Positions 5,229 through 52,545 of a stretch of DNA of 64,000 nt are shown piece by piece. The stretch spans positions 29,835 through 93,834 of the forward strand of contig CAXPEB010000047.1 in NCBI GenBank assembly GCA_964215915.1, in the 5' to 3' direction. The position numbers and the translations under genes are program-made. Every line of letters starts with the position of its first letter. The stretch's first letter is position 1. Source of the DNA: Bacteroidia bacterium (lineage in GTDB: Bacteria > Bacteroidota > Bacteroidia > UBA8524). Below the pieces are notes generated by a model. The model saw only the letters and a program-made list of their open reading frames with translations. It ran no database searches and was not told where the DNA came from.

Positions 5229-5308
5229 AAGTGTATTCACTATCAATAATCCTTTTCAGGCAAAGTAATAGCACTACCCAAAGCGGAAATTTGATGCAGG
5301 TCAAATAA

Positions 5309-5884
5309 TCACCCCGATGCTAGTTTAGACCTGATCCGGGAAAGCGTTTCCAGAGAGACATTCAGATATGAGGCTATGAGGGTTACAGGCAACTGCTGCA
5401 CTATTCTGGGATCTTTTTTAAGCAGACTCAAATACCGCTGGGAAGCATCCATGGTCTGAAACTCTCTCAGCCTTTGCTCAAACCAGGTAGCATAGTATTC
5501 GATAAACATTTTGTCCAGCATCATTACCTCGGGATACTTCTCTTTCACTTTATGAAAGCGACTGTAGTCAATGATCGTTACTTCCAGGTCAGTCAGGGCT
5601 TCGATGTAAACATCTGCCGGTTTTCTCATGATATAGCTATCCAGTGACACCGCCACATCATCGTGGAAGTACACTTCGGTGGTTATTTCTTTCTCATTAT
5701 GTTCATAGAACTTTCTGGCAACACCGTCTTTAATCAACAGATGCGCCATACAGACTTGTCCGGGCCGAAGCAGATACACCCCCTTGGCAAATTGCTTATT
5801 GACAAACCCTCCTTCTAATTCAGCATGGATATCAGGATTTAGGTTATTGGATAAGTCTTTGATTCTCTTTATGTATGGATTCAT
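5309..5884 (-). CDS. Crp/Fnr family transcriptional regulator
   Basis: 191 aa with an N-terminal cNMP-binding-like beta-roll and a C-terminal HTH (LPVTLIASYLNVSLETLSRIRSKL). Confidence 0.8.
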   Translation of the reverse strand: MNPYIKRIKDLSNNLNPDIHAELEGGFVNKQFAKGVYLLRPGQVCMAHLLIKDGVARKFYEHNEKEITTEVYFHDDVAVSLDSYIMRKPADVYIEALTDLEVTIIDYSRFHKVKEKYPEVMMLDKMFIEYYATWFEQRLREFQTMDASQRYLSLLKKDPRIVQQLPVTLIASYLNVSLETLSRIRSKLASG

Positions 5885-13066: not shown

Positions 13067-14653
13067 CTAAGACCCGAAACTCAATTGAAGGGTATGACCC
13101 GGCGAATGTGGCCCGGTGAGATATCCCTTAAACGGCAATCTGGAATGCATCACCAGAATTCCGCCCTTGGGTATCCGTACCGGAATTTCGGCCCCTTGCT
13201 GAATGAGCAACTCAATCTCGTACGGAGTCAACTCTCTGTGGTGCAAACCCTTTATGATACGCAGGGAGGTTTGTTCATTACGGTTTTCTCTAAGCTGTAT
13301 CCGTATGACCAAAGAATTACGGTCATTCGACAGCTGTTGCCAACCCTTCCTAACTTCCGGAGCACTATAGTAAGGGTTAAACTCAGCCCAAACATGTTCC
13401 GGACTAAGATTAGAACTCTTTAGGATTTGATCGATAGATTCTTTGTGCCACAGGGATTTGGTCAGTTCTGCCAGCTTCTCCGGCGGTATACCCGGGTTTT
13501 CGGCACAAAGCCTATGGGCCTGACTCCTTAAATGACGGCATTCGCGCTCTGTGTAAACCTGTTCCAACACATGATACCCCTTCTTTGCCAGGATGGAAGG
13601 AAGTTTTTGAATAACCTCTCCATTCATTTCCATCCGGTAATGATTCAGGCCCGCTTCAATCCGATCAAACAAGCGCTTGCGAAGCCTGGAGGGTTCCAAA
13701 ACCCGAATAGTCTCTCCCAATCCCAGTAACACCTTCTCCAGTTCAAAGTTGTGCTGCACCTGCATTTCGAAGATCATCCCAAAATGATTTCGTTCCACCA
13801 ACTTCTGACTGGCATGCAGAGGCTTGGTAAGCAGATAGGGCGCTGATTCCATTGTGGCAAAGAAGCGAACCGTTTCAGGAATAGCCTGCGGGCTTACCGT
13901 TACACCGATGACATTTTTAAAATAGTTCCGGAAAAAGTCCTCTTCCTCTAACTGCGACTCCTCATCCATAATTTTAACACCCTCCATCCTATCCAGGGCC
14001 AGTAACTGATAGCTTCGGCTAGTTTCTCTGTGACCCAATACAAACCAACGGTTCTGGTACTCCTTCAATAGCCCGGGATGAAACAAGATATTTTGAGCTG
14101 CTCTGGCTTTGAAAGACTGGTAGGTAATCAGAGTCTGTTTCTTGTTCATTATTGCGTTATACAATACTTCCATCCAGTGCAGGCCCTTCAGATTTTCGTT
14201 TGACTCAAGATCTATAATGGGTCTACCCTTGGTGCGGGAAACCTGTACTTTGTCTTCGAGTCGCTGTACGATTCCTCCCAGATCTTCAAAATGAGAAAAC
14301 CCTTTAAACTGCTTGAGCAAATTGACGGCCTCGGTCAGTTTGTTCAAGTCCTGATCAGTTAGCGGGATATTGGTGATGGAATATTCAGGGTCTTCGTAGC
14401 TGTAGTATTTCTTGTCTGTGATGATGATCGGCGCGTTATATCCCAGTTTTTCACTTCGCATCATCTGGATGTCCATCTGTACGGTGCGCCGGCTTACTCC
14501 TTTATCAATTCCTTCGAATTCGTATAGCGCCTCGGAACAAGCATCGATAAGATCCTCAAGAGTCCATTTTCGGTACCTGTTTTTCAGGCAGTTATCGATG
14601 GTGGTATAGCGCAGGAGAGCATTGCGATTAACGGGCATGGTGAAAATTTTCAA
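13067..14653 (-). CDS. HTH-WYL-WCX family transcriptional regulator with an additional ~190-aa C-terminal domain
   Basis: 528 aa. The layout is an N-terminal winged-HTH region, then a WYL-type domain (LITYQSFKARAAQNILFHPGLLKEYQNRWFVLGHRE), then a WCX-like segment (IRVLEPSRLRKRLFDRIEAG). The unassigned C-terminal part contains WHKE and ...ILVMHSRLPF motifs. Confidence 0.75.
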   Translation of the reverse strand: MKIFTMPVNRNALLRYTTIDNCLKNRYRKWTLEDLIDACSEALYEFEGIDKGVSRRTVQMDIQMMRSEKLGYNAPIIITDKKYYSYEDPEYSITNIPLTDQDLNKLTEAVNLLKQFKGFSHFEDLGGIVQRLEDKVQVSRTKGRPIIDLESNENLKGLHWMEVLYNAIMNKKQTLITYQSFKARAAQNILFHPGLLKEYQNRWFVLGHRETSRSYQLLALDRMEGVKIMDEESQLEEEDFFRNYFKNVIGVTVSPQAIPETVRFFATMESAPYLLTKPLHASQKLVERNHFGMIFEMQVQHNFELEKVLLGLGETIRVLEPSRLRKRLFDRIEAGLNHYRMEMNGEVIQKLPSILAKKGYHVLEQVYTERECRHLRSQAHRLCAENPGIPPEKLAELTKSLWHKESIDQILKSSNLSPEHVWAEFNPYYSAPEVRKGWQQLSNDRNSLVIRIQLRENRNEQTSLRIIKGLHHRELTPYEIELLIQQGAEIPVRIPKGGILVMHSRLPFKGYLTGPHSPGHTLQLSFGS

Positions 14654-14945
14654 AAAAATCCGAAAAAGAATTTAACTGCGCAAAAAGACTGCGCAGTTGC
14701 TCCTAACCTTTGAATTGTGAAACACGAACAAAAAGGAATTCGGCCCCGCTCTTCAAATTGAAGAGTGGGTTGCGAAAAAGGAGGTTTCACTTGTTCATTG
14801 ACATATCCGCATAGTGATATAAAGATCTTTCCGAAAGGAAAGCGCAGATGTTTTCAGGTACGGACCTGCTTCCGGTTTCTGTATAGCCGGAAAGTGCTCT
14901 AAGGAGTATGCTACTTGTCCTGAAATTGATTTGTGTCCAACGCGT

Positions 14946-15047
14946 GTCGGGGGTTCGATTCCCTCTCCTATAGTTTAGGGTAGCTCAGTTGGTAGAGCAG
15001 CGATGTAACGCAGGTTCGAATCCTGCACTCAGTTTTGGTCTGAGTTT
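14946..15047 (+). ncRNA. tRNA-like element that is not a canonical tRNA; candidate Y-RNA-like (YrlA-type) tRNA mimic
   Basis: The first T-arm-like segment is GGGGG-TTCGATT-CCCTC (14949-14965). A canonical D-arm GCTC-AGTTGGTA-GAGC follows at 14983-14998. Only 11 nt later comes a perfect T-arm GCAGG-TTCGAAT-CCTGC (15010-15026). A hairpin ACTCAG-TTTTGGT-CTGAGT plus TTTG follows at 15027-15048. No anticodon stem-loop fits, because the D-stem and T-stem are separated by 11 nt where about 23 are needed. No 7-bp acceptor stem can be paired. Confidence 0.4.
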
Positions 15048-15351
15048 GATTAATGGTTGAATCAACATCCCATGGACTCCAAATCCATCACCGGGACCGC
15101 CTGTCCCCAAATAAGGCAATTGTATCCGGGCGGGAAAAGAGAAACAGAGCGGTGCTTCGGCACCAATCACGGAGTTCCGGGCCGGAAACGGCAGATACCG
15201 CAGGACGACGCGTTTTTCAGGTGATCGCATCCATTCCAGAATGCATTCGGTTGCAGTAAAAATGCCGGTGACTGCTCAAGCAGGTTCCCGCCCCGAAAAC
15301 CGGTTTCTCTTTCCCCCGCCCTATTAAATGAAAATGTAAAAGTAGATTGAT

Positions 15352-16449
15352 ATGAAAAAAGTAATCGTAACACCGGGTCTGGTAGGCTTGGTTTACAAAA
15401 ACGGAAAAACAGAACGTGTATTGACTGAAGGAACCTACTGGATATCCTTGTGGTCTGAAGTGCGCATGTTTGCGATGAACCTGGCATTTCAACCGAAAGA
15501 GAGTCTGGAAGTAGCCTTGCAATCGGAAGTTTTGCAACCCTACCTTGAAATAGTAGAGGTGAAAGAAGGAGAAATCGCTCTGCGTTATGAAAACAACCGT
15601 TTTGTCGGGGTTCTTTTTGCCGGTAAGCATGCTTACTGGAAAGGACTGATCGATTACCGTTTCATCATCGACAATATGGAAAACTGCCGTATTCGTCCGG
15701 AAATCGAAAGAAACATTTTGCGCTACCCGGCCTTTGGGTCATTAACCCGGACATTCCGTGTTGACTCATACTGCAAGGCAGTGTTAAGTATAGAAGGAGA
15801 GGAAGACAAGATTCTTGAACCGGGAGAATACCTGTTCTGGAACAACCGTAAGGTTATCTCCGTTATTCCGGTGGATATGCGTTCTCAGATGATGGAAGTT
15901 TCCGGACAGGAACTGCTTACCCGCGATAAAGCAAGCCTTCGGTTAAGTTTATTTGCTTCCATCCGGGTAAATGATATCCGCAAAGCGGTATTGGAAAATA
16001 CAGCCTACTCCAAACAGGTATACACCATCCTGCAATTGGCCATTCGTGAATTTGTCGGGACCAAAAGCCTGGATGAAATCCTGGAGAACAAGGAGATGAT
16101 TTCCGACTACGTGATGAAAAACAGCAAAGCTGCCATTGCGGAAACCGGAGTAGAGTTAAGCAGCTGCGGGGTTCGTGACATCATCCTTCCGGGAGAAATG
16201 CGCGAGATCTTTAATAAGGTGCTGATTGCGGAGAAACAAGCCGCAGCCAACGTAATCATGCGCCGGGAAGAAACCGCATCCACCCGTTCCCTGTTGAACA
16301 CCGCCAAACTGATGGAAGAAAACGAAGTGCTCTTCCGTCTGAAGGAAATGGAATACGTGGAACGTATCGCCGAAAAAATCGGGAACCTGAGCGTTACCGG
16401 TAACGGAACCCTGATCTCACAGTTAAAAGAGATTTTTGTAAATAAGTAG
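15352..16449 (+). CDS. SPFH/band-7 (stomatin/prohibitin-like) domain protein, soluble, co-operonic with rtcB
   Basis: 365 aa. The C-terminal two thirds show an SPFH core pattern (VDMRSQMMEVSGQELLTRDKASLRLSLFASIRVNDIRKAV...CGVRDIILPGEMREIF) followed by a coiled coil. There is no hydrophobic N-terminal anchor. The N-terminal region looks like partial SPFH-like duplications. The stop lies 17 bp before rtcB. Confidence 0.75.
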   Translation: MKKVIVTPGLVGLVYKNGKTERVLTEGTYWISLWSEVRMFAMNLAFQPKESLEVALQSEVLQPYLEIVEVKEGEIALRYENNRFVGVLFAGKHAYWKGLIDYRFIIDNMENCRIRPEIERNILRYPAFGSLTRTFRVDSYCKAVLSIEGEEDKILEPGEYLFWNNRKVISVIPVDMRSQMMEVSGQELLTRDKASLRLSLFASIRVNDIRKAVLENTAYSKQVYTILQLAIREFVGTKSLDEILENKEMISDYVMKNSKAAIAETGVELSSCGVRDIILPGEMREIFNKVLIAEKQAAANVIMRREETASTRSLLNTAKLMEENEVLFRLKEMEYVERIAEKIGNLSVTGNGTLISQLKEIFVNK

Positions 16450-16465
16450 CGGCTGGGGACCACAC

Positions 16466-17902
16466 TTGGTGGTCCCCATTATGATTGAATTCATGACTAT
16501 TACAAGCGAAGAACTGATAAAATGGAATATTCCAAAAGGCCCGGAATTCGGAATCTGCCTTGATATTTTGAATGCTCTGGATGAAAAATCCTGGAGCAAG
16601 AAGTCTGCGAAACAGGAAATCGATAAAATCTTATCAAACCCGGAAACAAAAAGTCATCCGGCATTTAATGCCCTGAAACAAGTGGTAATACAACGCGAGG
16701 CCAATAAAACCATTGCCGTGGCTGAAAAGGCAAGCAGTTATACGATTTATGGAGAAGAAGGAATAGAAGCGGGAGCTCTGAAGCAAATGGATACTGTGAT
16801 GCGTCTTCCCATTTCCCGTGCCGGAGCATTGATGCCAGACGCACACCAGGGTTACGGTTTACCCATTGGCGGAGTATTGGCTACGGAAAACACCATTATC
16901 CCTTACGGAGTGGGTGTGGATATAGGATGCCGTATGTGCCTGAGCATCTTCGATATCCCGGCAATCCATATAGAACAAAACCGGGAACGTCTGAAAACAG
17001 TTCTAAACCGGAGCTCCAAATTCGGCAAAGCTGTATTCCAAAAACCGCAGGATCATGAAGTACTGGCCAGCCCCTTGTTTAATGAGATTCCATTATTAAG
17101 GGCCCTTCAGGAAAAAGCAGCCAGGCAGATAGGCAGCTCCGGAGGAGGAAACCATTTTGTGGAATTTGGGATATGTGAAATAGTGGATCAAGACAACGAA
17201 TTGGGAATTCAGCCAGGCCAATACTTGTCATTACTCAGCCATTCCGGATCACGCGGACTCGGAGCCAGCATTGCCGGGCATTATACCCGGCTTGCCAAAA
17301 CACAGACCAGGTTGCCGGATGAGCTAAAACACCTGGCATGGCTTAATCTTGATAGTGAGGCGGGACAGGAATACTGGCTGGCAATGAACCTGGCAGGAGA
17401 CTATGCCAGCGCCTGTCATCATCAGATACACGCCAAAGTTGCCCGTGACTTTCAGCTGGAACCTTTGGCCATGGTTGAAAACCACCACAATTTTGCCTGG
17501 AAAGAAACCCTTGAAGATGGAAAGGAATACATTATTCACCGAAAGGGAGCTACACCGGCCGGAAAAGGGGTCTTAGGAATAATTCCTGGCTCCATGACTG
17601 CGCCTGGCTTTATTGTACGTGGGAAAGGGCTCTCAGACTCGTTGAATTCCGCCTCCCACGGAGCAGGCCGGGCCATGTCACGTACCCAAGCAAAGAACTC
17701 ATTGAATGCAAAGGATATGGTTAAACATCTCCAGGACCAGGGAGTTGATTTAATTGGTTCAGGCTTGGATGAGGCACCAATGGCGTATAAAAACATCCAT
17801 GACGTAATGGAAGCACAGAAAGACCTGATAGAAGTGCTGGGAACCTTCCTTCCCAAAGTGGTTCGAATGTGCGGCGACGAAGGTTTCCGGGAAGTGGATT
17901 GA
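16466..17902 (+). CDS. rtcB: RNA-splicing ligase RtcB (3-prime-phosphate / 5-prime-OH RNA ligase)
   Basis: 478 aa with the conserved RtcB motifs MPDAHQGYGLPIGGV, GGGNHFVEFG, HNFAWKE and HGAGRAMSR. A ~100-aa N-terminal extension is not typical of the core enzyme. Several alternative start codons fall in the first 10 codons. Confidence 0.85.
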   Translation: MVVPIMIEFMTITSEELIKWNIPKGPEFGICLDILNALDEKSWSKKSAKQEIDKILSNPETKSHPAFNALKQVVIQREANKTIAVAEKASSYTIYGEEGIEAGALKQMDTVMRLPISRAGALMPDAHQGYGLPIGGVLATENTIIPYGVGVDIGCRMCLSIFDIPAIHIEQNRERLKTVLNRSSKFGKAVFQKPQDHEVLASPLFNEIPLLRALQEKAARQIGSSGGGNHFVEFGICEIVDQDNELGIQPGQYLSLLSHSGSRGLGASIAGHYTRLAKTQTRLPDELKHLAWLNLDSEAGQEYWLAMNLAGDYASACHHQIHAKVARDFQLEPLAMVENHHNFAWKETLEDGKEYIIHRKGATPAGKGVLGIIPGSMTAPGFIVRGKGLSDSLNSASHGAGRAMSRTQAKNSLNAKDMVKHLQDQGVDLIGSGLDEAPMAYKNIHDVMEAQKDLIEVLGTFLPKVVRMCGDEGFREVD

Positions 17903-18981: not shown

Positions 18982-19011
18982 GCCCATTTTTTACTTGTCT
19001 AAAAAATGGGC
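18982..19011. repeat. Perfect 12-bp inverted repeat with 6-bp spacer (GCCCATTTTTTA-CTTGTC-TAAAAAATGGGC)
   Basis: Read directly from the sequence. It lies in a ~550-bp ORF-poor region upstream of the hydrolase gene. The AT-rich stem fits an operator-like site better than a terminator. Confidence 0.5.
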
Positions 19012-19428
19012 GAAAAAAGGACAGTTTTCCTGAAGGCGCCTTCCAGCCGCACTAACCTCCCTCCGCAACAAAAGCCTGACCATCGCTGGAATCTTTTCCA
19101 TGACTGCATTCTTTTGGAGAACATCCGTTTTCAAGATAATGGAATAGGCAACTCGCTGTTTCGTGAGAAAAGATTAAGGCGATTTGGCGCACAGGCTCCT
19201 GCACGCTTTTGTTGCGGCTCGCGCTGCAGGAAAACGGCCTGACGGCAGAAAAGGGCCGGACCGGGAACCGGATAGATTAATCATAGATTAGCTTAACAGG
19301 ATTGAAAACCCTATTCAGGCAACCGACATTCATTTGATTCGCTAGATAGTAAGAAAGGTTTCTCCTCTTCTGAATAGCAACATGTCCCCACAACTTTTTG
19401 ACTTGATCGGCTTTCTGTCCCGGAAAGG

Positions 19429-19995
19429 TCAGCGGAGTTCTTTTATCTTTTCTTTTGTGGTCCAGACCAAACGGCCACATTCCGTCACGATTATTTCCGA
19501 ATCCGTTTCCGCAAAAGACTCGGCAAAGTCCTGCCTGAATTTTACCCATTTTTCATCAACCTGTTCGCAGGCGATCCGCGCCAGGTAAATGGTCCTGCCG
19601 GTTAGCACCCAAATGGACGGAGTTACTTTGATACCAGCAGCCTTCTGCCTTTGGACCTTAGCACAATCGTTCGGAAAACACTTCAAAAGTGAGTCGACTG
19701 CCTGATCGCCTGTTTCTTTTGACGGAAAGTCGAATTGCCACATCTGAATTTTGGCATAAACGCTCCGGTTGTAGCTGTTTTGGTTCGAGTGAGGGGCTTT
19801 GGCCCTGATCGCCACTTCTCGCTTTTTACTATGGAGTTGCAGCTTGTCTATAGAATGGACAAAGTAGTCCGCCTCAGTGGAAACGATTATTTCAAAGCCC
19901 TCTTGCCTGCGTGCAAAATCTTCGACGGTTTTATCCTGCGGGTATTGAATAGCAGTCAGCAGGCTGAAAGTCACAATGGTCAGCAAAACGTTCAT
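19429..19995 (-). CDS. Hypothetical secreted protein
   Basis: 188 aa with a signal peptide (MNVLLTIVTFSLLTA). No recognisable family. Confidence 0.5.
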   Translation of the reverse strand: MNVLLTIVTFSLLTAIQYPQDKTVEDFARRQEGFEIIVSTEADYFVHSIDKLQLHSKKREVAIRAKAPHSNQNSYNRSVYAKIQMWQFDFPSKETGDQAVDSLLKCFPNDCAKVQRQKAAGIKVTPSIWVLTGRTIYLARIACEQVDEKWVKFRQDFAESFAETDSEIIVTECGRLVWTTKEKIKELR

Positions 19996-20081
19996 GAGTC
20001 CTCAGGTAGAAACGTCCGTAGAGCCTTTTAGGTATGCCCCTTCAATTTGAAAATTAACAAAAAGCCCGGAAACAACCTCCC

Positions 20082-20651
20082 TTATTCTCCGCCGGATACT
20101 TTCCCGTTTAGGGGTTCATAAATCAATTGTACCACTCCGGACCTGAACGTGTTCGTTCCGGTCAGCTTCAGTTCCAGCGGAGTTTTCACCTCTTCAAAGA
20201 GGGGTTTGCCACTTCCCAAAACGATGGGGTGCACGGAAATCCGGTACCGATCTATTAATCCGGACCGGATAAATGTTTGGATCAGTCCGGCCCCGCCATA
20301 TAACCAGATGTCCTTTCCCTCCATGGACTTCAATTTGGCGACCTCTCTTTCCACATCAGAACGGATAAAATGAACACGGTCGTCGTTGCCCGCTTGCCTG
20401 GTAAAAACATACTTCTTTTTATTATGGATGGCCTGCCAGAATTTGTGCTCTTCTTCCGCTGCATTTTCATCCGGATAAAAATTACCCCAGGCTTCGTAGC
20501 TTACTCTGCCGTAGAAGATGGCATCGATGGTTTCCAGGAATCCATAAAAATCCATATCCTCATCCAGGATACACCAATCTGTTTCGCCATTCGGGCCTTC
20601 GATGTAGCCGTCTAAGGACACGGCCAGGTCCAATATTATGTTTCTACTCAT
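20082..20651 (-). CDS. Dihydrofolate reductase family protein (RibD C-terminal domain type)
   Basis: 189 aa. The N-terminus MSRNIILDLAVSLDGYIEGPNGETDW and the GR-[VT]-[ST]-YE motif match the RibD_C/YwjB-like reductase pattern. Confidence 0.75.
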   Translation of the reverse strand: MSRNIILDLAVSLDGYIEGPNGETDWCILDEDMDFYGFLETIDAIFYGRVSYEAWGNFYPDENAAEEEHKFWQAIHNKKKYVFTRQAGNDDRVHFIRSDVEREVAKLKSMEGKDIWLYGGAGLIQTFIRSGLIDRYRISVHPIVLGSGKPLFEEVKTPLELKLTGTNTFRSGVVQLIYEPLNGKVSGGE

Positions 20652-20654
20652 TGC

Positions 20655-21077
20655 TTAATCCTCCACCGCTTCAATTCCCTGTTGTTTCAGATGCTCAAGG
20701 TGTTGCCTCATGGCAGTCAATTGTTCCGGAGAATGTCCTTCCCAATATTCAACTTCGCCCACAACCCGTATCGGATGGGCGGTACGATAGGATTTTGTTG
20801 GGTTCCCCGGGAATTTTTTGTCGGTCAGGTTGGGATCATCTTCATAGTGGCCTGTGGGTTCCACTTGGTAAATTCTTCCCGGACCTTCTCCAACCGCCAA
20901 TTCCGCTCCCCAGATTGCGGCATCCAGTGTAGCCGTAAGATATACATACCGCGCGTGTTTCCTTCTGCCATAATTGGAACGGAAACCCGGTTTGATCAGG
21001 TCCCCGGGTTGCATCTCTGCCTTTGTACCGTGATAGAAAGTCAGGGTTGTTTCTTTTTTCTTATCGATCTCTTTCAT
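20655..21077 (-). CDS. arr: Rifampin ADP-ribosyltransferase
   Basis: 140 aa, colinear with remembered Arr-2 across the whole length. The blocks FYHGTKA, AIWGAELA and YQVEPTGHYEDDPNLTDKKFPGNPTKSYRT all correspond, then the RVVGEVEYWEGH block and the IED-like C-terminal end. Confidence 0.9.
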   Translation of the reverse strand: MKEIDKKKETTLTFYHGTKAEMQPGDLIKPGFRSNYGRRKHARYVYLTATLDAAIWGAELAVGEGPGRIYQVEPTGHYEDDPNLTDKKFPGNPTKSYRTAHPIRVVGEVEYWEGHSPEQLTAMRQHLEHLKQQGIEAVED

Positions 21078-21535
21078 CCTTTATTACCGGTGAATTTGTC
21101 TTTCGTTTCATTCATCAGGGCTATGGCATTGATAAAGTAGCGCTCCATGATGGTCAGTTCATCGTCGGAAAAGGACCCCATTAATGTGTCGGTACCTGCC
21201 TGGAAATCTTTGTAATACGGTTCCAACAGGGCCATGATCTTTTCGGTATCCGGAACAATGTACACCCTGCGTCGGTCGCTTTTGTCCGGCTGTCTTTTTA
21301 CCAGTTTCTTTTTCTCAAACCGATCGATTAAGCCGGTAACCGCTCCGGTAGTCAATCCCGTTAAACCCGCTAGCTCCCCTGCCGTCAGCTTTCCTTTTTG
21401 AAGGAAAAAACCCAGGTATTTGTGATCCGTGCCTGAGAAACCACTTTTCCGGGCTATGGTTTCGTGTAGCTGTATGGATGTATAGGCATACCGTTGACTC
21501 AAACTCCTTAATGCCACGATTCTATCCTTACTCAT
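21074..21535 (-). CDS. MarR family transcriptional regulator
   Basis: 153 aa with a winged-HTH MarR pattern (LTAGELAGLTGLTTGAVTGLIDRFEKKKLVKRQPDKSDRRRVYIVPT). Its start codon overlaps the arr stop by 4 bp, suggesting an operon. Confidence 0.8.
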   Translation of the reverse strand: MSKDRIVALRSLSQRYAYTSIQLHETIARKSGFSGTDHKYLGFFLQKGKLTAGELAGLTGLTTGAVTGLIDRFEKKKLVKRQPDKSDRRRVYIVPDTEKIMALLEPYYKDFQAGTDTLMGSFSDDELTIMERYFINAIALMNETKDKFTGNKG

Positions 21536-21805
21536 TTTACCTCACTCGCTATTTATCTTAGCAACAAAGATATTAAAATCAAAGGAACTCTTCTGAAAAG
21601 AAAGGACCTGGGCTTAAACAATCGGGGTATTCAGAAAAAGCCTATCCTGTCCAAATAACCGCATTCAATAAATGCTTGTCACCGGGAAAACCCAACAATG
21701 ACAAACATCATTTTTTTTCCTGCGCCCGGTCATTTATGAACCCTTGTTTTCTAGGTAATTTTGATCAATCCTTAAAAAGGAAAAGAACAGGCAAAACGAA
21801 AAAAG

Positions 21806-22309
21806 ATGTGGTGGCTTATTATCCTGCTGACCTTATTGCTGGTATTGCTCCTCTGGTTGTTGTGGGCACCACTCACCCTGGTGATTGACAGCAGTCAGGG
21901 CCTATACCGCATCAGCTGGTGGGGTATTGCCAGCGCCCGGATCTTTGCCCACGAAGAACAGGTATTGATGATCCGGTTCAACATCTTCTTCCTGAGGAAA
22001 AACCTGGGCCTTGTGGATATGCTCAACAAGGAAAAAAAGGCAAAAACCGAAAAGAGCAAAGCGAAGAAAAAGAAATACAAGGGACCCGGATGGAGAAAGA
22101 TAAAAAGCGGGATTGCCTCATTCCGGGTAAAAGAATTCCACGTAGAACTGGATACGGGAGATTACGTCTGGAATGCCTGGCTATTTCCTATCGCTTATTT
22201 CGTCAGCAGGGGGAACGTACGGCTTCAAATCAATTTCAACCGGCACAACAGCGCAAGAATTGTCATCGAAAACCGCATGATACGTCTCCTGTACGCATTT
22301 CTAAAATAA
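21806..22309 (+). CDS. Membrane protein, DUF2953 (YtfI)-like
   Basis: 167 aa. It has an N-terminal TM helix MWWLIILLTLLLVLLLWLLWAPL, a lysine-rich linker and a C-terminal domain ending ...IENRMIRLLYAFLK. It is followed at 19 bp by a GerW/YtfJ-family gene, as in the Bacillus ytfI-ytfJ pair. Confidence 0.5.
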   Translation: MWWLIILLTLLLVLLLWLLWAPLTLVIDSSQGLYRISWWGIASARIFAHEEQVLMIRFNIFFLRKNLGLVDMLNKEKKAKTEKSKAKKKKYKGPGWRKIKSGIASFRVKEFHVELDTGDYVWNAWLFPIAYFVSRGNVRLQINFNRHNSARIVIENRMIRLLYAFLK

Positions 22310-22328
22310 CCTTTAAAACTATACTGCA

Positions 22329-22691
22329 ATGGAAATCAACTTCAACGAATTATTAACCAAAATCACTGACTTCATGAAGTCGGAGGCAAAAACGGAAACC
22401 GTAATCGGCGAGCAGTTTACGCTTGGCGAATTCACCTGTGTACCGGTAATTAAAGTAGGAATGGGTTTCGGCTCGGGCGGAGGTGAAGGCGAAGACCCCA
22501 AAAAAGGCAAAGGTACCGGTGCCGGAGCAGGTGCAGGCGTGGGAATCGAACCCATCGGGTTCCTGGTGACCCGTGAAGACAGCATCAGCTTCCTTAGCGC
22601 CGGTAAATCAAAGGGATTGGCAGCCATGTTTGAGCAGGTTCCGGAATTGATTGAAAAGCTGGCCAAGAAAAAAGATCAGCAGGAGGCTTAA
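22329..22691 (+). CDS. GerW/YtfJ family protein (sporulation-protein-YtfJ fold)
   Basis: 120 aa with the family pattern VIGEQFTLGEFTCVPVIKVGMGFGSGGGEGE...GAGAGAGVGIEPIGFLV and a glycine-rich loop. Confidence 0.7.
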   Translation: MEINFNELLTKITDFMKSEAKTETVIGEQFTLGEFTCVPVIKVGMGFGSGGGEGEDPKKGKGTGAGAGAGVGIEPIGFLVTREDSISFLSAGKSKGLAAMFEQVPELIEKLAKKKDQQEA

Positions 22692-22740
22692 GCAGCCGTT
22701 CGATTTATTACGAAAACCACCGATGGTACCGAAAACAGAA

Positions 22741-22766
22741 AGCCGCGGGTTTCGCGGCTTTTTCTT
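22741..22766 (+). terminator. Rho-independent terminator after the GerW-like gene
   Basis: The hairpin AGCCGCG-GGTTT-CGCGGCT is followed by TTTTCTT. Confidence 0.7.
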
Positions 22767-22871
22767 ACTCCATGACTCATAGGAAATGATCGGGTTATTT
22801 CCGGTTGAGCAGACAAGCAGGATCGTCTAACGTCTGCATGCCTTGCTCCTATTTCGTACCTTAGCACAACC

Positions 22872-23963
22872 TTGCGCGTAACAGGAATCATTCTCCCTCT
22901 TTTTTTCGCAGGTATCCTGCAGGTTCAGGCTCAGGACGCCCCCCAAATACGGGTTTTGGGTTTTGTTGATGTGTTTTATGCCTACGACTTCAACAAGCCC
23001 GTGGGCAATGTGCGACAACCTTTCCTTTATAACCACAACCGCCATAATGAGATTAACCTGAACCTGGGATTAATCAAGCTGTCGGTTTCCGATAATAGCT
23101 ACCGGGCTAACCTGGCCCTTCAAACGGGGACTTACCCTCTTGATAACTACGCTGCCGAACCCGGGGTACTGAAGAGCGTGTTCGAAGCCAATGCCGGAAT
23201 CTCCCTGGACAAAAAACACCGGCTCTGGTTGGATGCCGGTGTCTTTGCATCGCATCTGGGCTTTGAATCGGCAATTTCGATGGATAACTGGACGCTTACC
23301 CGTTCCTTATCGGCCGAAAACTCTCCATATTACCTGGCAGGTGCCAAGCTCAGCTATTCCCCGGATAAACGCTGGAATTTTGCCGCCCTCATTTGTAACG
23401 GTTGGCAGCGGATACAGCGGCTCCCCGGAAACTCACTGCCTTCTTTTGGTACGCAGATCGGGTATAAACCTGCCGATAAATTCAGCCTGAACTGGAGCAC
23501 TTTTGCAGGAACCGATTCCCCGGACAGCAACCGCGTAATGCGGTACTTCAGCAACTTCTACGGCAAACTTCTGATAACGGAACGTATAGGACTGATCGCA
23601 GGTTTTGATTTTGGGTTGCAACAAACAAAACCCGGCGGAAACAACTTTGATTTCTGGTATTGTCCCGTATTGATCGCCCGCTACCGTCTGGGGAATACCT
23701 GGGCCATGGCTTTGAGGGCGGAATACTACCAGGACCTGACGGGAGTAATCATTGAAACCAACCTGCCCTATGGTTTCAGTACCTTCGGCTACTCACTGAA
23801 TCTTGATTACCTGCCCAATTCCAGGGTAGCCTGTCGGATGGAAGGACGTTGGCTGAATTCACCTGACCCCCTATTCCAAAAGGGTGGGACCCTGACTCAA
23901 AACAACCTGACTCTGGTAACGTCTATCGCCATAAAATTCGACTCCGCAATAAGGTCCCGGTAA
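22872..23963 (+). CDS. Outer-membrane beta-barrel protein (porin-like)
   Basis: 363 aa with a signal peptide (ILPLFFAGILQVQAQ) and alternating amphipathic beta-strand pattern rich in aromatic residues and Gly. No specific family assigned. Confidence 0.6.
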   Translation: MRVTGIILPLFFAGILQVQAQDAPQIRVLGFVDVFYAYDFNKPVGNVRQPFLYNHNRHNEINLNLGLIKLSVSDNSYRANLALQTGTYPLDNYAAEPGVLKSVFEANAGISLDKKHRLWLDAGVFASHLGFESAISMDNWTLTRSLSAENSPYYLAGAKLSYSPDKRWNFAALICNGWQRIQRLPGNSLPSFGTQIGYKPADKFSLNWSTFAGTDSPDSNRVMRYFSNFYGKLLITERIGLIAGFDFGLQQTKPGGNNFDFWYCPVLIARYRLGNTWAMALRAEYYQDLTGVIIETNLPYGFSTFGYSLNLDYLPNSRVACRMEGRWLNSPDPLFQKGGTLTQNNLTLVTSIAIKFDSAIRSR

Positions 23964-24036: not shown

Positions 24037-24111
24037 ATGAGCCGAATAAAATGTGTAATCGGCTCATGTTTTGGGTATATTTGAGCCGAATAGCGTACCT
24101 AATCGGCTCAT
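24037..24111. promoter_or_regulatory. Two tandem copies of an imperfect palindrome ATGAGCCGAAT-N9-AATCGGCTCAT upstream of and overlapping the fic start
   Basis: Copy 1 spans 24037-24067 and copy 2 spans 24082-24111. The arms are TGAGCCGAAT / AATCGGCTCA. The second copy ends in the fic ATG. Confidence 0.5.
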
Positions 24112-25240
24112 GCGTTATAACTGGCAACAAACAGACTGGCCCCATTTTCAGTATGATTCGGCGATACTGGAAGGTCTACTCTTCAAGCTGACCGAACAAA
24201 TGGGTAAGCTCAGGGGTGTAATGAAAGCGCTGCCTGAAGATACCCGCATGGAAGCTATTATCGATACCATGGTATCCGAAGCGATTAAAACTTCAGAGAT
24301 CGAAGGAGAATACCTCAGTCGCGAGGATGTAAAATCTTCCATACGGAATAAACTGGGATTGAATAGTCCTCCTGAAAAAGTTTCTGATAAAAAGGCCCGG
24401 GGAGCCGGGGAACTGATGGTAGCCGTCCGGAATACCTTTTCCGAACCGCTGACAGAACAAATGCTTTTTGACTGGCACCGGCTTTTATTACAAAGTGATC
24501 CGGACATCCATACCGGAGCCTGGCGTACTCATGAAGAACCCATGCAGGTAGTGTCCGGTACTCTTGACAAACAACGCATCCATTTCGAAGCCCCTCCATC
24601 CGCAAAAGTTCCCGGAGAAATGAAACGGTTTATTGATTGGTTCAATGACTCGTCCTCCATTGAAGGTCCGGAAATCAAAAATGCTCCGATCAGAGCAGCT
24701 TTGGCTCACCTGTATTTTGAGAGTATACACCCCTTTGAAGATGGCAACGGACGCATCGGGCGGGCCATTGCCGAGAAAGCCCTTTTACAGGGTTATGGTC
24801 ATCCTTTACTACTAAGCTTATCGGCAACCATTGAGGCAAATAAGAAGGAGTATTACCATTCGCTGGAAAAAGCGCAACAAAGCAATGACGTGACTGCCTG
24901 GACGGAATATTTCCTTAATACCGTCTTGTCCGCAGAAAAGTCGGCAGAAGAGCAGATTGATTTCATCCTCGGTAAGGCTCGTTTTTTTGATCGTTACAAG
25001 GGAATACTCAATCAAAGACAACTCACCGTGTTAAGGCGTATGCTGCAGGAAGGCCCCCAAGGTTTCAAAGGAGGTATGTCAGCCAGGAAATACAGGGCCA
25101 TTGCCCAGATCTCAAAGGCAACGGCAACGAGAGACATGCAACACTTGGCGGAAATAGGGGCCTTTAGACCGGTTGGTGCCGGTCGCAGTGCCCGGTATGA
25201 AATCGTACTACCCGACTCCGGTTCCGGCGAAATTCTTTAG
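24110..25240 (+). CDS. fic: Fic family protein (AMPylase-type fido domain with DUF4172-like N-terminus)
   Basis: The Fic motif HPFEDGNGRIGR is present. The N-terminus MRYNWQQTDWPHFQYD is typical of DUF4172-Fic proteins. A C-terminal winged-helix-like tail is present. The ORF is listed from 24071, but the ATG at 24110 matches the family N-terminus. Confidence 0.85.
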   Translation: MRYNWQQTDWPHFQYDSAILEGLLFKLTEQMGKLRGVMKALPEDTRMEAIIDTMVSEAIKTSEIEGEYLSREDVKSSIRNKLGLNSPPEKVSDKKARGAGELMVAVRNTFSEPLTEQMLFDWHRLLLQSDPDIHTGAWRTHEEPMQVVSGTLDKQRIHFEAPPSAKVPGEMKRFIDWFNDSSSIEGPEIKNAPIRAALAHLYFESIHPFEDGNGRIGRAIAEKALLQGYGHPLLLSLSATIEANKKEYYHSLEKAQQSNDVTAWTEYFLNTVLSAEKSAEEQIDFILGKARFFDRYKGILNQRQLTVLRRMLQEGPQGFKGGMSARKYRAIAQISKATATRDMQHLAEIGAFRPVGAGRSARYEIVLPDSGSGEIL

Positions 25241-25256
25241 TCGGATACTACACCCC

Positions 25257-26285
25257 TTAAGCTTCTATCACTGTAATTCCGCTCAAATCCGCATGCTCCT
25301 TCTTCAGGAAAGCATACGTCAACTTATCCGCTTTGCAGTCAACAAACCGGATCTTCTTCATTTTCTTGTTGTGTTTGAAGAAGGTATTGATAAGCGTTGC
25401 ATTCCGGAAGATAACCCCGCTAAACCCACAGTTTTCAAAAAGGCACTCTTCTATGGTGCCTTCAAAAACGACGTCGGCAATATGCATGGAACGAAAAGAG
25501 GTACGATTCCATACGGCACCTGTTACCGTATTGTTTCCGAAACCACCGGATTTAAGTTCCACTCCCGTAAAATCAGAGTCAGAGAAATCGCAACCCTCAA
25601 CATAGCTCCGCAAAAATTCCGTTTCTATCAGCGAGCACCCATTAAAGGTGTTATTGGACAGGTTTGAACTCTGAATCTTGCTTCTGCTGATATCAGAACC
25701 GGAGAAGTCACAGCTCTCCACATTATTGCTTTTCAATAGAAGCCCCGACAAATCCGAGCCAACGAACAGGCACCGCTGCATATTGGAAGAAGCGAATTTT
25801 TCATGCAGGTTTTTCAACCCGGAGAAGTCCGTATCCACCAGGTTCTCACGCGACATGTCCCAACTACGCCTTTTCCCCTGTCCATTCCCCGACTCAGGCT
25901 GTGTACCGGATGAGACTTCCTCGTTCGCTTCCTCAGGCACCGTGTGTTGAAGGTCTTTGGAAAAGTAGTTGAGGTCGACACCCAGAATTTCTGCGAGTCG
26001 GTTGAAGGTAATGATATCCGGCATGGATTCTCCGCGTTCCCATTTCCCAACCGCCTGCGCACTGATAAACAAGCGCTCGGCAAGCTGGGCCTGTGAAATA
26101 CCGAATTTTTTACGGGCCTCCGTAATGCGTTCACCGATCCTTTTTGTACTTAGCATAGCTGTTTCTTTTTTGACCCTACAAAGGTATTGGCAGCTTTTCC
26201 CGGATTCCTGAAAACAAGCAACACTTCTGGTTGTAATTCCGCTACTTATAGTGGTAATCTGACAACTGTTGGTGGTATTTGACAA
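25257..26285 (-). CDS. XRE-family HTH domain fused to a pentapeptide-repeat domain
   Basis: 342 aa. The N-terminus has an HTH_XRE signature (RITEARKKFGISQAQLAERLFISAQAVGKWERGESMPDIITFNRLAEILGVDLNYF). A linker follows. About 160 aa then carry A(D/N)LxX-type pentapeptide repeats (CDFSGSDISRSKIQSSNLSNNTFNGCSLIETEF...). Confidence 0.75.
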   Translation of the reverse strand: MSNTTNSCQITTISSGITTRSVACFQESGKSCQYLCRVKKETAMLSTKRIGERITEARKKFGISQAQLAERLFISAQAVGKWERGESMPDIITFNRLAEILGVDLNYFSKDLQHTVPEEANEEVSSGTQPESGNGQGKRRSWDMSRENLVDTDFSGLKNLHEKFASSNMQRCLFVGSDLSGLLLKSNNVESCDFSGSDISRSKIQSSNLSNNTFNGCSLIETEFLRSYVEGCDFSDSDFTGVELKSGGFGNNTVTGAVWNRTSFRSMHIADVVFEGTIEECLFENCGFSGVIFRNATLINTFFKHNKKMKKIRFVDCKADKLTYAFLKKEHADLSGITVIEA

Positions 26286-52452: not shown

Positions 52453-52545
52453 GGGTTCTCTTTGAGGTAAAGATAAGGATTCCGGGAAGCACCGTTTTAA
52501 CCGATGGAAGGTGAACTTCTTTACGACGGGATAAGACGATGAACC

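What the first reader, a model, noticed from the sequence alone, without database searches (positions are those of the whole stretch)
20082..21535. Rifampin ADP-ribosyltransferase (arr) in an operon-like arrangement with MarR and a RibD-C-type reductase
The 140-aa ORF is colinear with Arr enzymes over its whole length, through the blocks FYHGTKA, AIWGAELA, YQVEPTGHYEDDPNLTDKKFPGNPTKSYRT and WEGH. Arr inactivates rifamycins. The MarR gene start overlaps the arr stop by 4 bp. A dihydrofolate-reductase-family (RibD_C) gene ends 3 bp before the arr start. This looks like a compact three-gene unit with a dedicated repressor. There is no sign of an integron or transposon around it, so this looks like an intrinsic environmental resistance gene.
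Basis: partly seen in the sequence, partly recalled or inferred. Interest (0 to 1): 0.55.

Follow-up and report, generated by a model that had tools for sequence, protein, structure and literature searches.

The report
Rifamycin-resistance operon with dedicated MarR regulator
A Bacteroidota chromosome carries an ordinary rifamycin-inactivating gene (arr), but the regulator gene in front of it belongs to an apparently undescribed family that, across this phylum, sits with one conserved DNA site in front of either of two unrelated rifamycin-destroying enzymes.

Summary
The three genes are real, on the minus strand at the stated coordinates. It is marR (21535-21074), then arr (21077-20655), then ribD_C (20651-20082). 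The marR stop overlaps the arr start (ATGA), and ribD_C starts 3 nt after the arr stop.

Arr is a clear family member: NCBIfam rifampin_ARR 221 bits against a cutoff of 130, 57% identity to Arr-ms, all catalytic and binding residues kept. arr in Bacteroidota is already documented, so the gene itself is ordinary.

The regulator is the new part. In 83 loci with MarR orthologues (59-75% identity), 76 of the 81 with readable downstream sequence have a rifamycin-inactivating gene next. It is arr in 27 and the unrelated phosphotransferase rph in 49. Nearly all have the palindrome TTATCTTTG-N3-CTAAGATAA 14-22 nt before the marR ATG, over a Bacteroidota-type -7 box. The motif occurs at marR, not at arr genes that lack the regulator.

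The likely mechanism is a rifamycin-released autorepressor. Repression and the ligand are inferred, not shown.

The RibD_C gene (60% identity to B. subtilis YyaP) recurs in such operons, but its role is unknown. There is no mobile element within about 8 kb here, yet the marR-arr module also occurs on multidrug-resistance plasmids of Empedobacter and Riemerella.

The parts
21074..21535 (-). marR: first gene of the operon, 153 aa. It is a MarR-family winged-helix regulator of a Bacteroidota subfamily coupled to arr or rph.
   Evidence: ORF. Pfam MarR_2 4e-11 (43 bits, cutoff 27) and MarR 1.9e-10. Best PDB match 2rdp, a MarR, at 8.5e-10. 3467 clusters at E<=1e-20, all named only 'MarR family'. 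No cysteine in 82 of 83 family members.
20655..21077 (-). arr: NAD+-dependent rifamycin ADP-ribosyltransferase, 140 aa.
   Evidence: NCBIfam NF033144 rifampin_ARR equivalog at 221 bits against a cutoff of 130. Pfam Arr-ms 165 bits. PDB 2hw2/9iaf Arr-ms at 1e-47 and 9iba ARR-2 at 1e-42. 56.7% identity to Arr-ms over 127 ungapped residues. H16, Y46 and D81 correspond to Arr-ms H19, Y49 and D84; HGT, SNY, DPNL, S96, R98 and W112 are kept.
20082..20651 (-). ribD_C (yyaP-like): 189-aa reductase of the RibD_C / DHFR-like superfamily, substrate unknown. Third gene of the operon.
   Evidence: Pfam RibD_C 2.7e-25. PDB 2gd9, B. subtilis YyaP, at 4e-65. It fails the riboflavin RibD reductase models (TIGR00227 23 bits against a cutoff of 150). 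No canonical DHFR_1 hit.
21553..21573 (.). Inferred MarR operator. It is a 21-bp palindrome, ATATCTTTGTTGCTAAGATAA on the coding strand, ending 17 nt before the marR ATG.
   Evidence: Inverted repeat TATCTT/AAGATA. One of only two hits in the 64-kb window at <=2 mismatches, against 0.22 expected. The same motif is at the same position in 79 of 83 MarR loci at >=12/14. Information content is near 2 bits at 14 or more positions. It is also present in 8 further loci. Binding itself is not shown.
21565..21572 (-). Putative Bacteroidota-type -7 promoter box TATCTTTG (consensus TAnnTTTG). It forms the left arm of the palindrome.
   Evidence: Sequence. In the family logo the left arm prefers T (86%) at the one position where perfect symmetry would need A, which makes it TTTG. 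A weak TTTG lies about 20 nt upstream. The TAnnTTTG/-33 TTTG consensus is recalled from the Bacteroides/Flavobacterium promoter literature and was not tested here.
21538..21544 (-). Degenerate third half-site TGAGGTA (family consensus TAAGATA), just before the marR start codon.
   Evidence: The family consensus is TTA-N3-A-N-TAAGATA downstream of the palindrome. The window copy matches 5 of 7.
21074..21077 (-). ATGA junction: the marR stop TGA overlaps the arr start ATG, suggesting translational coupling.
   Evidence: Sequence. The same 4-nt overlap is seen in Adhaeribacter swui and in the sister contig L162.
20649..20657 (-). arr stop TAA, 3-nt spacer GCA, then the ribD_C start ATG.
   Evidence: Sequence. 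No minus-strand terminator-like site is predicted inside 20082-21535.
19429..19995 (-). 188-aa hypothetical protein with an N-terminal hydrophobic signal-like segment, 86 nt downstream of ribD_C. It may be co-transcribed. It is not part of the conserved module.
   Evidence: ORF. No Pfam or NCBIfam family. It is present in the same position in L081 and has no homologue in any other arr or MarR locus.

Best explanation
This is a chromosomal, minus-strand operon marR-arr-ribD_C in a Bacteroidota genome.

Arr is a bona fide rifamycin ADP-ribosyltransferase. By analogy with Arr-ms it uses NAD+ to ADP-ribosylate the ansa-chain 23-hydroxyl, so that the drug no longer binds RNA polymerase.

marR is the first gene. 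It encodes a member of a Bacteroidota-wide MarR subfamily that serves as the local regulator of rifamycin-inactivating genes, either arr or the unrelated phosphotransferase rph.

The proposed mechanism has four steps:
1. A MarR dimer binds the conserved 21-bp palindrome (plus a third half-site). This site overlies the -7 promoter box and the transcription start region of its own gene.
2. Binding represses the whole operon.
3. A rifamycin-type ansamycin binds MarR and releases it.
4. marR, arr and ribD_C are then expressed together, and tight spacing (a 4-nt overlap and a 3-nt gap) couples their translation.

The YyaP-like RibD_C reductase is co-expressed, but its substrate is unknown.

Shown here: family membership, intact Arr active-site residues, gene geometry, the MarR-cargo association and conservation of the operator.

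Inferred, not shown: DNA binding, repression, the identity of the inducer and the resistance phenotype.
For: Arr identity:
- NCBIfam equivalog model at 221 bits against a cutoff of 130 and Pfam at 165 bits.
- Arr-ms and ARR-2 structures matched at 1e-47 and 1e-42.
- H-Y-D triad, HGT, S-N-Y, DPN[VL], S99, R101 and W115 equivalents all conserved. These are the residues listed as key in PMC8492726 and PMC6092378.

Operon structure:
- Same strand, ATGA overlap, 3-nt gap.
- No internal terminator-like site on the coding strand.

Regulator-cargo coupling:
- A metagenome scan used the MarR protein alone as query, so the cargo was not part of the selection. It gave 80 loci.
- With the window, L008 and L055 this makes 83 loci. 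The next gene is rph in 49 and arr in 27. RibD_C comes first and then the contig ends in 2, other or unknown in 3, and 2 have no sequence left.
- The ~870-aa cargo is NCBIfam RIF_Ptrans_rph at 1400-1450 bits against a cutoff of 999.
- After removing MarR sequences >90% identical, 69 remain: 40 rph, 23 arr.
- Eight further places, six of them from named organisms, all have an arr gene or arr-similar sequence after marR; in L177 it is no longer an intact ORF.

Operator:
- 79 of 83 loci match >=12 of 14 specified positions, with the site ending 14-22 nt before the ATG.
- The logo is near 2 bits in both arms while the flanks are unconserved.
- In 849 kb around 80 arr genes, a perfect motif occurs only in the two loci that also have this MarR.
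- The recognition-helix region LTGLTTGAVTGLIDRFEKKxLVKR is >=90% conserved across the family, which fits one shared operator.

Not a thiol sensor: 82 of 83 members have no cysteine.
Against: - No experiment or expression data exists for any member. Ligand identity rests only on gene neighbourhood.
- arr-type and rph-type MarRs form separate clades. The coupling therefore reflects two old lineages rather than frequent cargo swapping, which gives fewer independent events than the number of loci suggests.
- A few members precede other genes: a VOC/glyoxalase in L101 and an unknown small protein in L133 and L145.
- Rifamycins (700-900 Da) are larger than typical MarR ligands.
- The window's -33 element and third half-site are imperfect.
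- The literature tools cover only part of the literature, so a prior description cannot be excluded.
Confidence: 0.6

Rival explanations
1. The MarR is a general xenobiotic or multidrug-stress regulator, like E. coli MarR, that happens to sit next to arr. Induction would be by phenolics or other stresses, not by rifamycins.
For: MarR proteins are often promiscuous (established knowledge). A few family members precede a VOC/glyoxalase gene or RibD_C reductases. The neighbourhoods of several loci are rich in small detoxification genes.
Against: 76 of 81 informative loci have a rifamycin-inactivating enzyme as the immediate cargo. These enzymes come from two structurally unrelated families whose only known shared property is their substrate. 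No efflux pump or other drug-class gene was seen as cargo.
Confidence: 0.15
2. The conserved palindrome is not a protein operator. It would be a transcription-factor-independent rifampicin-sensing promoter arrangement, with two face-to-face promoters, as described for Bacillus helD and pps. MarR would play a secondary role.
For: Rifampicin sensing by convergent promoters exists and is reported as widespread (PMC12802891). The reverse complement of the right arm (TATCTTAG) resembles the Bacteroidota -7 box, so the element could be read as two overlapping opposed -7 boxes.
Against: The motif is found only where this MarR is present and is absent upstream of 78 arr genes that lack it. The third direct half-site, and near-invariance well beyond what promoter boxes show, point to a sequence-specific protein. 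The protein's recognition helix is also conserved. The right arm carries A where a -7 box needs T.
Confidence: 0.07
3. Concerning the third gene: the RibD_C protein is a drug-insensitive dihydrofolate reductase. The operon would then be a two-drug unit (rifamycin plus antifolate), assembled by co-selection.
For: It belongs to the DHFR-like superfamily and matches PDB chains deposited as dihydrofolate reductases (3jtw, 2xw7, 1cz3). On the Riemerella plasmid the marR-arr region is followed by a canonical DHFR gene. From my own knowledge, untested here: RibD_C-type proteins such as M. tuberculosis Rv2671 and a soil-metagenome clone have been reported to give antifolate resistance, and arr and dfrA cassettes co-occur in integrons.
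Against: No hit to the canonical DHFR_1 model. No function is known for YyaP; the PDB entry calls it hypothetical. Five sampled orthologues sit in unrelated contexts. The Riemerella region is a mosaic with a tet(X) fragment.
Confidence: 0.2
4. Concerning the third gene: RibD_C reductases are an unrecognised accessory of rifamycin resistance, for example NADPH-dependent reduction of the drug or of its quinone form.
For: RibD_C genes of at least three different subfamilies (26%, 35% and 66-100% identity to the window's) lie inside MarR-controlled operons. The arrangements are marR-ribD_C-arr (L093, L144, L157), marR-arr-ribD_C (the window; L144 and L157 also have a second copy after arr) and marR-ribD_C... 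(L137; probably L151). One more lies just upstream of marR-rph (L121). RibD_C lies within 6 kb of arr in about 10 of 80 unrelated arr loci, directly adjacent in L015, L066 and L079.
Against: Most marR-arr and marR-rph loci lack it. Close orthologues are usually elsewhere in the genome. No chemistry is known. RibD_C genes are common in accessory detoxification neighbourhoods, which could produce the association.
Confidence: 0.15
5. Arr here has a physiological role other than antibiotic resistance, for example the guanidine-related or ROS/DNA-damage roles proposed for some arr genes.
For: Such roles have been suggested from gene neighbourhoods in Actinobacteria (PMC8492726).
Against: Sister regulators with the same operator control rph, a dedicated rifamycin phosphotransferase. 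The rifampin-contact residues are conserved.
Confidence: 0.05

Closest known systems
Arr-ms (M. smegmatis, PDB 2HW2) and Arr-2 (integron-borne), rifampin ADP-ribosyltransferases
   Same: Single ~140-aa Arr domain, 57% identity to Arr-ms with no gaps. The H-Y-D catalytic residues, the NAD+ motifs HGT and S-N-Y, and the DPN[VL] and rifampin-contact residues are all kept.
   Different: The host is a Bacteroidota chromosome. The gene is preceded by a MarR gene rather than by an RAE element (Actinobacteria) or an integron cassette promoter (Proteobacteria). Activity is untested.
Rifamycin-associated element (RAE) regulon of Actinobacteria
   Same: One conserved palindromic cis-element precedes several unrelated rifamycin-resistance genes (arr, rph and others). 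It overlaps a promoter, and induction by rifamycins is the proposed logic (PMC12802891 discussion).
   Different: For RAE the binding factor is still unknown. Here the candidate factor is encoded next to the site. The element is AT-rich, sits upstream of the regulator gene, and is found in a different phylum. I did not compare the two sequences.
Dual convergent-promoter rifampicin alarm of Bacillus subtilis (helD, pps/rph)
   Same: It controls a rifamycin phosphotransferase homologue and other rifampicin-protection genes in response to the drug.
   Different: That system needs no transcription factor. Here a dedicated MarR and a symmetric operator are the conserved features, and the motif is absent from arr genes without the MarR.
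MarR-family local repressors of resistance genes (for example E. coli MarR, S. aureus MepR)
   Same: About 150-aa winged-helix protein, a palindromic site over its own promoter, and autoregulated operon logic.
   Different: The cargo is a drug-inactivating enzyme rather than a pump. The apparent specificity is for one antibiotic class. There are no cysteines, so it is not of the OhrR/MgrA redox type. No ligand has been demonstrated.
Bacillus subtilis YyaP (PDB 2GD9), a RibD_C-fold protein of unknown function
   Same: 222 bits (E = 4e-65) over residues 2-179, with the G-G-A/S-x-L-I nucleotide-binding stretch conserved.
   Different: Here it is embedded in an arr operon. The function of YyaP itself is unknown.
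Rifamycin phosphotransferase RPH
   Same: It is the alternative cargo of the sister MarR clade, behind the same operator.
   Different: It is not present in this window.

Membership tests
Arr (rifampin ADP-ribosyltransferase) | Matches the curated family models above their cutoffs over the whole domain | tested here: met
   NF033144 at 221.2 bits against a cutoff of 130, model positions 3-131 of 131. PF12120 at 165 bits, positions 1-99 of 99.
Arr (rifampin ADP-ribosyltransferase) | H-Y-D catalytic motif (Arr-ms H19, Y49, D84) | tested here: met
   H16, Y46 and D81 in an ungapped alignment to 2hw2. The residues are as defined in PMC8492726.
Arr (rifampin ADP-ribosyltransferase) | NAD+ motifs HGT and S[NH][YF]; DPN[VL]; S99, R101 and W115 equivalents | tested here: met
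   HGT at 16-18, SNY at 34-36, DPNL at 81-84, plus S96, R98 and W112.
Arr (rifampin ADP-ribosyltransferase) | ADP-ribosylates rifamycins and raises the MIC | not testable with these tools
   Needs an enzyme assay or heterologous expression.
MarR-family transcriptional regulator | Winged helix-turn-helix MarR domain above the curated cutoff, about 150 aa | tested here: met
   MarR_2 at 43.3 bits (cutoff 27) and MarR at 40.9 bits (cutoff 24.6). 20 MarR structures matched.
MarR-family transcriptional regulator | Palindromic site at its own promoter | tested here: met
   A conserved 21-bp palindrome ends 14-22 nt before the ATG in 79 of 83 loci. Presence and conservation were tested; binding was not.
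MarR-family transcriptional regulator | Ligand-dependent release from DNA (here: by rifamycins) | not testable with these tools
   Inferred only from cargo specificity.
Redox-sensing MarR (OhrR/MgrA type) | Conserved sensing cysteine | tested here: not met
   No cysteine in the window protein or in 82 of 83 family members.
RibD_C / DHFR-like reductase superfamily | RibD_C domain above the cutoff | tested here: met
   PF01872 at 89.8 bits against a cutoff of 24.1. 2gd9 at 4e-65.
Riboflavin-pathway RibD reductase | Meets the equivalog or domain model cutoff | tested here: not met
   TIGR00227 at 23.3 bits against 150; TIGR01508 at 16.6 bits against 186.
Canonical dihydrofolate reductase (FolA/DfrA, PF00186) | DHFR_1 domain | tested here: not met
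   No DHFR_1 hit at E<=0.01. DHFR activity itself is not testable here.
Integron cassette or transposon-borne arr | Integrase or transposase next to the gene | tested here: not met
   The ORFs checked with Pfam within about 8 kb gave WYL/WCX regulator, Band_7, alpha/beta hydrolase, YtfJ, BBP2 porin, Fic and HTH-pentapeptide domains; RtcB at 16466-17902 was assigned by eye only. No mobility gene was found among the ORFs checked, and GC is 0.45-0.49, like the flanks. attC sites were not searched.
Actinobacterial RAE-controlled resistance gene | The 19-bp RAE palindrome in the 5' region | not tested
Only its existence and length were taken from PMC12802891.

The most novel reading that the evidence does not exclude
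The MarR encoded at 21074-21535 is a member of a phylum-wide family of direct rifamycin-sensing repressors in Bacteroidota. The family has a single conserved operator, TTATCTTTG-N3-CTAAGATAA plus a third half-site. It controls arr in one clade and rph in the sister clade. This would make it the first protein sensor assigned to the rifamycin resistome. RibD_C reductases, and the VOC and unknown proteins found as rarer cargos, would then be unrecognised rifamycin-resistance factors.
Probability: 0.45. Interest if true: 0.65.

Novelty: new member of a known kind. Interest (0 to 1): 0.45.

Why it matters
- How bacteria detect rifamycins is only partly solved. In Actinobacteria the factor that binds the RAE element is still unknown, and in Bacillus sensing is done by promoter architecture without a sensor protein (PMC12802891).
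- A small cysteine-free MarR with a defined operator, present in culturable strains with complete genomes (Olivibacter sp. SDN3, Niabella ginsenosidivorans, Adhaeribacter swui), makes a protein-based rifamycin sensor directly testable. It could also serve as a biosensor part.
- The coupling of sister regulators to rph is independent genomic evidence that Bacteroidota arr genes really are about rifamycins.
- The regulator offers a way to find further rifamycin-resistance genes among its rarer cargos (RibD_C, VOC, unknowns).
- The same module is already on multidrug-resistance plasmids of Riemerella and Empedobacter from poultry and food.

Tried and rejected
- The sigma-70 promoter and terminator scan of 19000-22400 gave counts no higher than shuffles. 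It is not informative for Bacteroidota promoters and was used only to note that no minus-strand terminator lies inside the operon.
- A second operator-like hit at 52456-52476 (TTCTCTTTGAGGTAAAGATAA) lacks the CTAAGATA core and lies between two ORFs with no family. With 0.22 hits expected by chance, I treat it as chance.
- A literature search for YyaP found nothing relevant. YyaP is also absent from the rifampicin-induced proteome tables of PMC12802891.
- Five close RibD_C orthologues were sampled to see whether YyaP-type genes generally accompany arr, rph or marR. None did, so I reject the idea of a fixed three-gene unit.
- No rph or second marR copy is in the window.
- No tRNA is in the window and there is no compositional island.
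- Searches for a described MarR regulator of arr or rph returned nothing pertinent. This is absence from the searchable library only.
- I did not predict structures. The Arr and RibD_C proteins have solved relatives at 57% and about 60% identity, and a MarR model would not identify the ligand.
Full report
**1. What is in the sequence.**

Window 20082-21535 holds three contiguous ORFs, all on the minus strand. They are 21535..21074 (153 aa), 21077..20655 (140 aa) and 20651..20082 (189 aa). The coding strand reads ATGA at 21077-21074, so the stop of the 153-aa gene overlaps the start of the 140-aa gene. It reads TAA-GCA-ATG at 20657-20649, so the 189-aa gene starts 3 nt after the stop of the 140-aa gene. 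The real order is marR -> arr -> ribD_C, with the regulator first. No terminator-like site is predicted on the coding strand inside the unit.

**2. The enzyme.**

- The 140-aa protein matches Pfam Arr-ms end to end (165 bits). It matches the NCBIfam equivalog model rifampin_ARR at 221 bits against a cutoff of 130.
- It aligns without gaps to the solved Arr-ms structure (2hw2/9iaf, E = 1e-47) and to ARR-2 (9iba). Identity to Arr-ms is 56.7% over 127 residues.
- Every residue the literature lists as essential is present: H16, Y46 and D81 (Arr-ms H19, Y49 and D84), HGT, S-N-Y, DPNL, S96, R98 and W112. The definitions come from PMC8492726 and PMC6092378.
- Membership in the Arr family is therefore met on every sequence criterion. 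Activity is untested.
- arr in Bacteroidota is not new. A survey found 401 sequences in 392 genomes of the phylum and no universal genomic context (PMC8492726).
- More than 8000 clusters match at E<=1e-10. The best genome hits are 76-80% identical and come from Hymenobacter, Saprospiraceae and Flavipsychrobacter, but also from cyanobacteria and Firmicutes.

**3. The setting.**

- A protein at 27194-31429 carries a T9SS sorting domain (Por_Secre_tail), which fits a Bacteroidota host.
- The ORFs checked with Pfam within about 8 kb gave these families: a WYL/WCX regulator, Band_7, an alpha/beta hydrolase, YtfJ, a BBP2 porin, a Fic/DUF4172 protein and an HTH-pentapeptide protein. The 478-aa ORF at 16466-17902 looks RtcB-like by eye but was not scanned, and two ORFs have no family.
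- I found no integrase or transposase among the ORFs checked. GC (0.45-0.49) matches the flanks, and there is no tRNA.
- A sister organism with 94% MarR identity has the same synteny, including ribD_C (L162).

**4. The regulator is the interesting part.**

- The 153-aa protein is a MarR-family winged-helix protein.
- I used it alone as query against metagenome contigs. This returned 80 loci with orthologues of 59-75% identity. The cargo was not part of the query.
- Together with the window, L008 and L055 this gives 83 loci. The gene immediately downstream on the same strand is an ~870-aa protein in 49 loci and arr in 27.
- Five representatives of the ~870-aa protein were tested. Each scores 1400-1450 bits on NCBIfam RIF_Ptrans_rph (rifamycin-inactivating phosphotransferase, cutoff 999). 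Their higher-scoring 'phosphoenolpyruvate synthase' models appear to be legacy names for the same family; B. subtilis 'Pps' is treated as an RPH homologue in PMC12802891.
- Of the other seven loci, two run out of sequence and two begin with a RibD_C-like gene before the contig ends. One has a VOC/glyoxalase gene and two have an unknown small protein.
- After collapsing MarR sequences above 90% identity, 69 remain: 40 rph and 23 arr.
- Eight further places all show an arr gene or arr-similar sequence after marR. Six are from named organisms: Sinomicrobium sp. M5D2P9, Olivibacter sp. SDN3, Niabella ginsenosidivorans, Adhaeribacter swui, Fulvivirga imtechensis AK7 and an Empedobacter brevis plasmid. 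The other two are the sister contig L162 and a Riemerella anatipestifer plasmid, where arr appears degraded.
- Arr and RPH are structurally unrelated. What they share is their substrate.

**5. A conserved operator.**

- Upstream of marR the window has ATATCTTTGTTGCTAAGATAA (21573-21553 on the coding strand), ending 17 nt before the ATG.
- The same element is at the same place in 79 of 83 loci at >=12 of 14 specified positions.
- The consensus is TTATCTTTGyNaCTAAGATAt, followed by TTA-N3-A-N-TAAGATA and then the start codon. Both arms reach about 2 bits per position, while the sequence just upstream is unconserved. The proteins are only about 62-75% identical to each other.
- All eight additional loci have it.
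- In 849 kb surrounding 80 arr genes from other genomes, a perfect copy occurs only in the two loci that also carry this MarR, and there it is upstream of marR. The element therefore goes with the regulator, not with arr.
- The left arm reads TATCTTTG, which is the Bacteroidota -7 promoter consensus TAnnTTTG (from my own knowledge of the Bacteroides/Flavobacterium promoter literature). At the one position where perfect symmetry would require A, the left arm prefers T (86%). This suggests it doubles as the -7 box. A weak TTTG lies about 20 nt upstream.
- The presumed DNA-recognition stretch of the protein, LTGLTTGAVTGLIDRFEKKxLVKR, is >=90% conserved family-wide.
- 82 of 83 members have no cysteine, so this is not a thiol-redox MarR.

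**6. Mechanism proposed.**

1. A MarR dimer, possibly two given the third half-site, binds over the -7 box and start site and represses marR-arr-ribD_C.
2. A rifamycin-type ligand releases it.
3. Arr then ADP-ribosylates the drug.

The cis-element, the geometry and the cargo association are shown. Binding, repression and the inducer are inferred.

A neighbour-joining tree separates arr-type from rph-type regulators. The association is therefore old and largely vertical within each clade. That lowers the number of independent events, but it also shows that one operator and regulator design has been kept for two different rifamycin enzymes.

**7. Rivals.**

- A general stress MarR fits poorly with the cargo specificity.
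- A factor-independent promoter sensor like the Bacillus dual-promoter system (PMC12802891) is worth keeping in mind, because the right arm's complement resembles a -7 box. However, the motif is absent from MarR-less arr genes, and the third half-site and extreme conservation point to a protein.
- A non-antibiotic role for Arr is disfavoured by the rph sister clade.

**8. The third gene.**

- The 189-aa protein is a RibD_C-fold reductase that matches B. subtilis YyaP, a solved structure of unknown function, at 222 bits.
- It fails the riboflavin RibD models and has no canonical DHFR domain.
- RibD_C genes recur in these operons:
  - marR-ribD_C-arr in L093, L144 and L157. L157 also has a YyaP-type copy after arr at 66% identity, and L144 has matching fragments there.
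  - marR-ribD_C... in L137 (truncated, 20.9 bits, below the Pfam cutoff) and probably L151 (38 residues, recognised by eye only).
  - A RibD_C gene just upstream of marR-rph in L121.
- RibD_C also lies within 6 kb of arr in about 10 of 80 other loci and is adjacent in L015, L066 and L079.
- Against a fixed link, most marR-arr and marR-rph loci lack it. Five sampled orthologues of 64-72% identity sit among unrelated small detoxification genes.
- I therefore treat ribD_C as an occasional, co-expressed passenger whose role is open. It could be a drug-insensitive DHFR, a rifamycin-directed reductase, or something unrelated.

**9. Mobility.**

The same marR-arr module, with a perfect operator, is on Empedobacter brevis plasmids next to tet(36), mphG and lnu(H). 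It is also on a Riemerella anatipestifer plasmid with blaOXA, ere(D), erm(F), estT and a tet(X) fragment fused to a canonical DHFR ORF. In Fulvivirga imtechensis a DDE transposase is adjacent. 'Intrinsic' therefore describes this locus, not the module.

**10. Literature.**

Within the searchable library I found nothing describing a MarR regulator of arr or rph. All database names for the family are generic. The 2026 paper on rifampicin sensing states that the RAE-binding factor is still unknown, and 'MarR' and 'Bacteroid' do not occur in its main text. This is absence of evidence in a partial library, not proof of novelty.

**11. Verdict.**

The arr gene is real and ordinary. The added value is a well-supported, testable hypothesis: this MarR subfamily, with its operator, is the rifamycin-resistance regulator of Bacteroidota.

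Noticed in passing
P0003 and many ~240-aa hits; L074 5710-6393: Cyanobacterial Arr proteins of about 240 aa are tandem Arr domains. The C-terminal domain is intact (71% identity to the window Arr). The N-terminal copy (58% identity) reads EAAPE where the catalytic EDDPN should be, so its catalytic Asp is lost. It looks like a pseudo-enzyme domain fused to an active one.
   Followed up: partly
L176 (Empedobacter brevis pSE1-3-20kb, NZ_CP043636.1) and L177 (Riemerella anatipestifer plasmid NZ_CP072192.1): The marR-arr module with a perfect operator sits on small multidrug-resistance plasmids. These carry tet(36), mphG and lnu(H), or blaOXA, ere(D), erm(F) and estT. In the Riemerella plasmid arr is no longer an intact ORF, and a tet(X) N-terminal fragment is fused in frame to a canonical DHFR.
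   Followed up: partly
L101 673-1074; L133 and L145 downstream of marR: A few members of the same MarR family, with the same operator, precede other genes. One is a VOC/glyoxalase-fold protein (L101). L133 and L145 have a small protein with no family. These are candidates for unrecognised rifamycin-related functions, but the contigs are too short to see more.
   Followed up: partly
window 52456-52476: A second operator-like sequence, TTCTCTTTGAGGTAAAGATAA (1 mismatch), lies between two divergent ORFs with no family (51862-52452 minus strand, 52546-53337 plus strand). It lacks the CTAAGATA core and is probably chance.
   Followed up: partly
window 13067-17902: A WYL/WCX-domain regulator (13067-14653, minus strand) lies next to a Band_7/SPFH protein (15352-16449) and a 478-aa ORF that looks RtcB-like by eye (16466-17902, not scanned). 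This may be an RNA-repair type cluster.
   Followed up: no
window 21806-23963: Divergent from marR are a 167-aa membrane-like protein with no family, a homologue of the sporulation protein family YtfJ (Spore_YtfJ, 2.7e-20) and an OmpL-like BBP2 porin. Finding a YtfJ-family gene in a Bacteroidota genome is curious. The trio is conserved in the sister contig L162.
   Followed up: no
window 24071-26285: A Fic/DUF4172 protein (24071-25240) is followed, convergently, by an HTH_3 + pentapeptide-repeat protein (25257-26285).
   Followed up: no
L175 (Niabella ginsenosidivorans CP015772.1) 4956-5523: Here marR and arr are separated by 566 nt with no called gene, unlike the 0-90 nt seen elsewhere. It could be a degraded insert or a missed small gene.
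   Followed up: no
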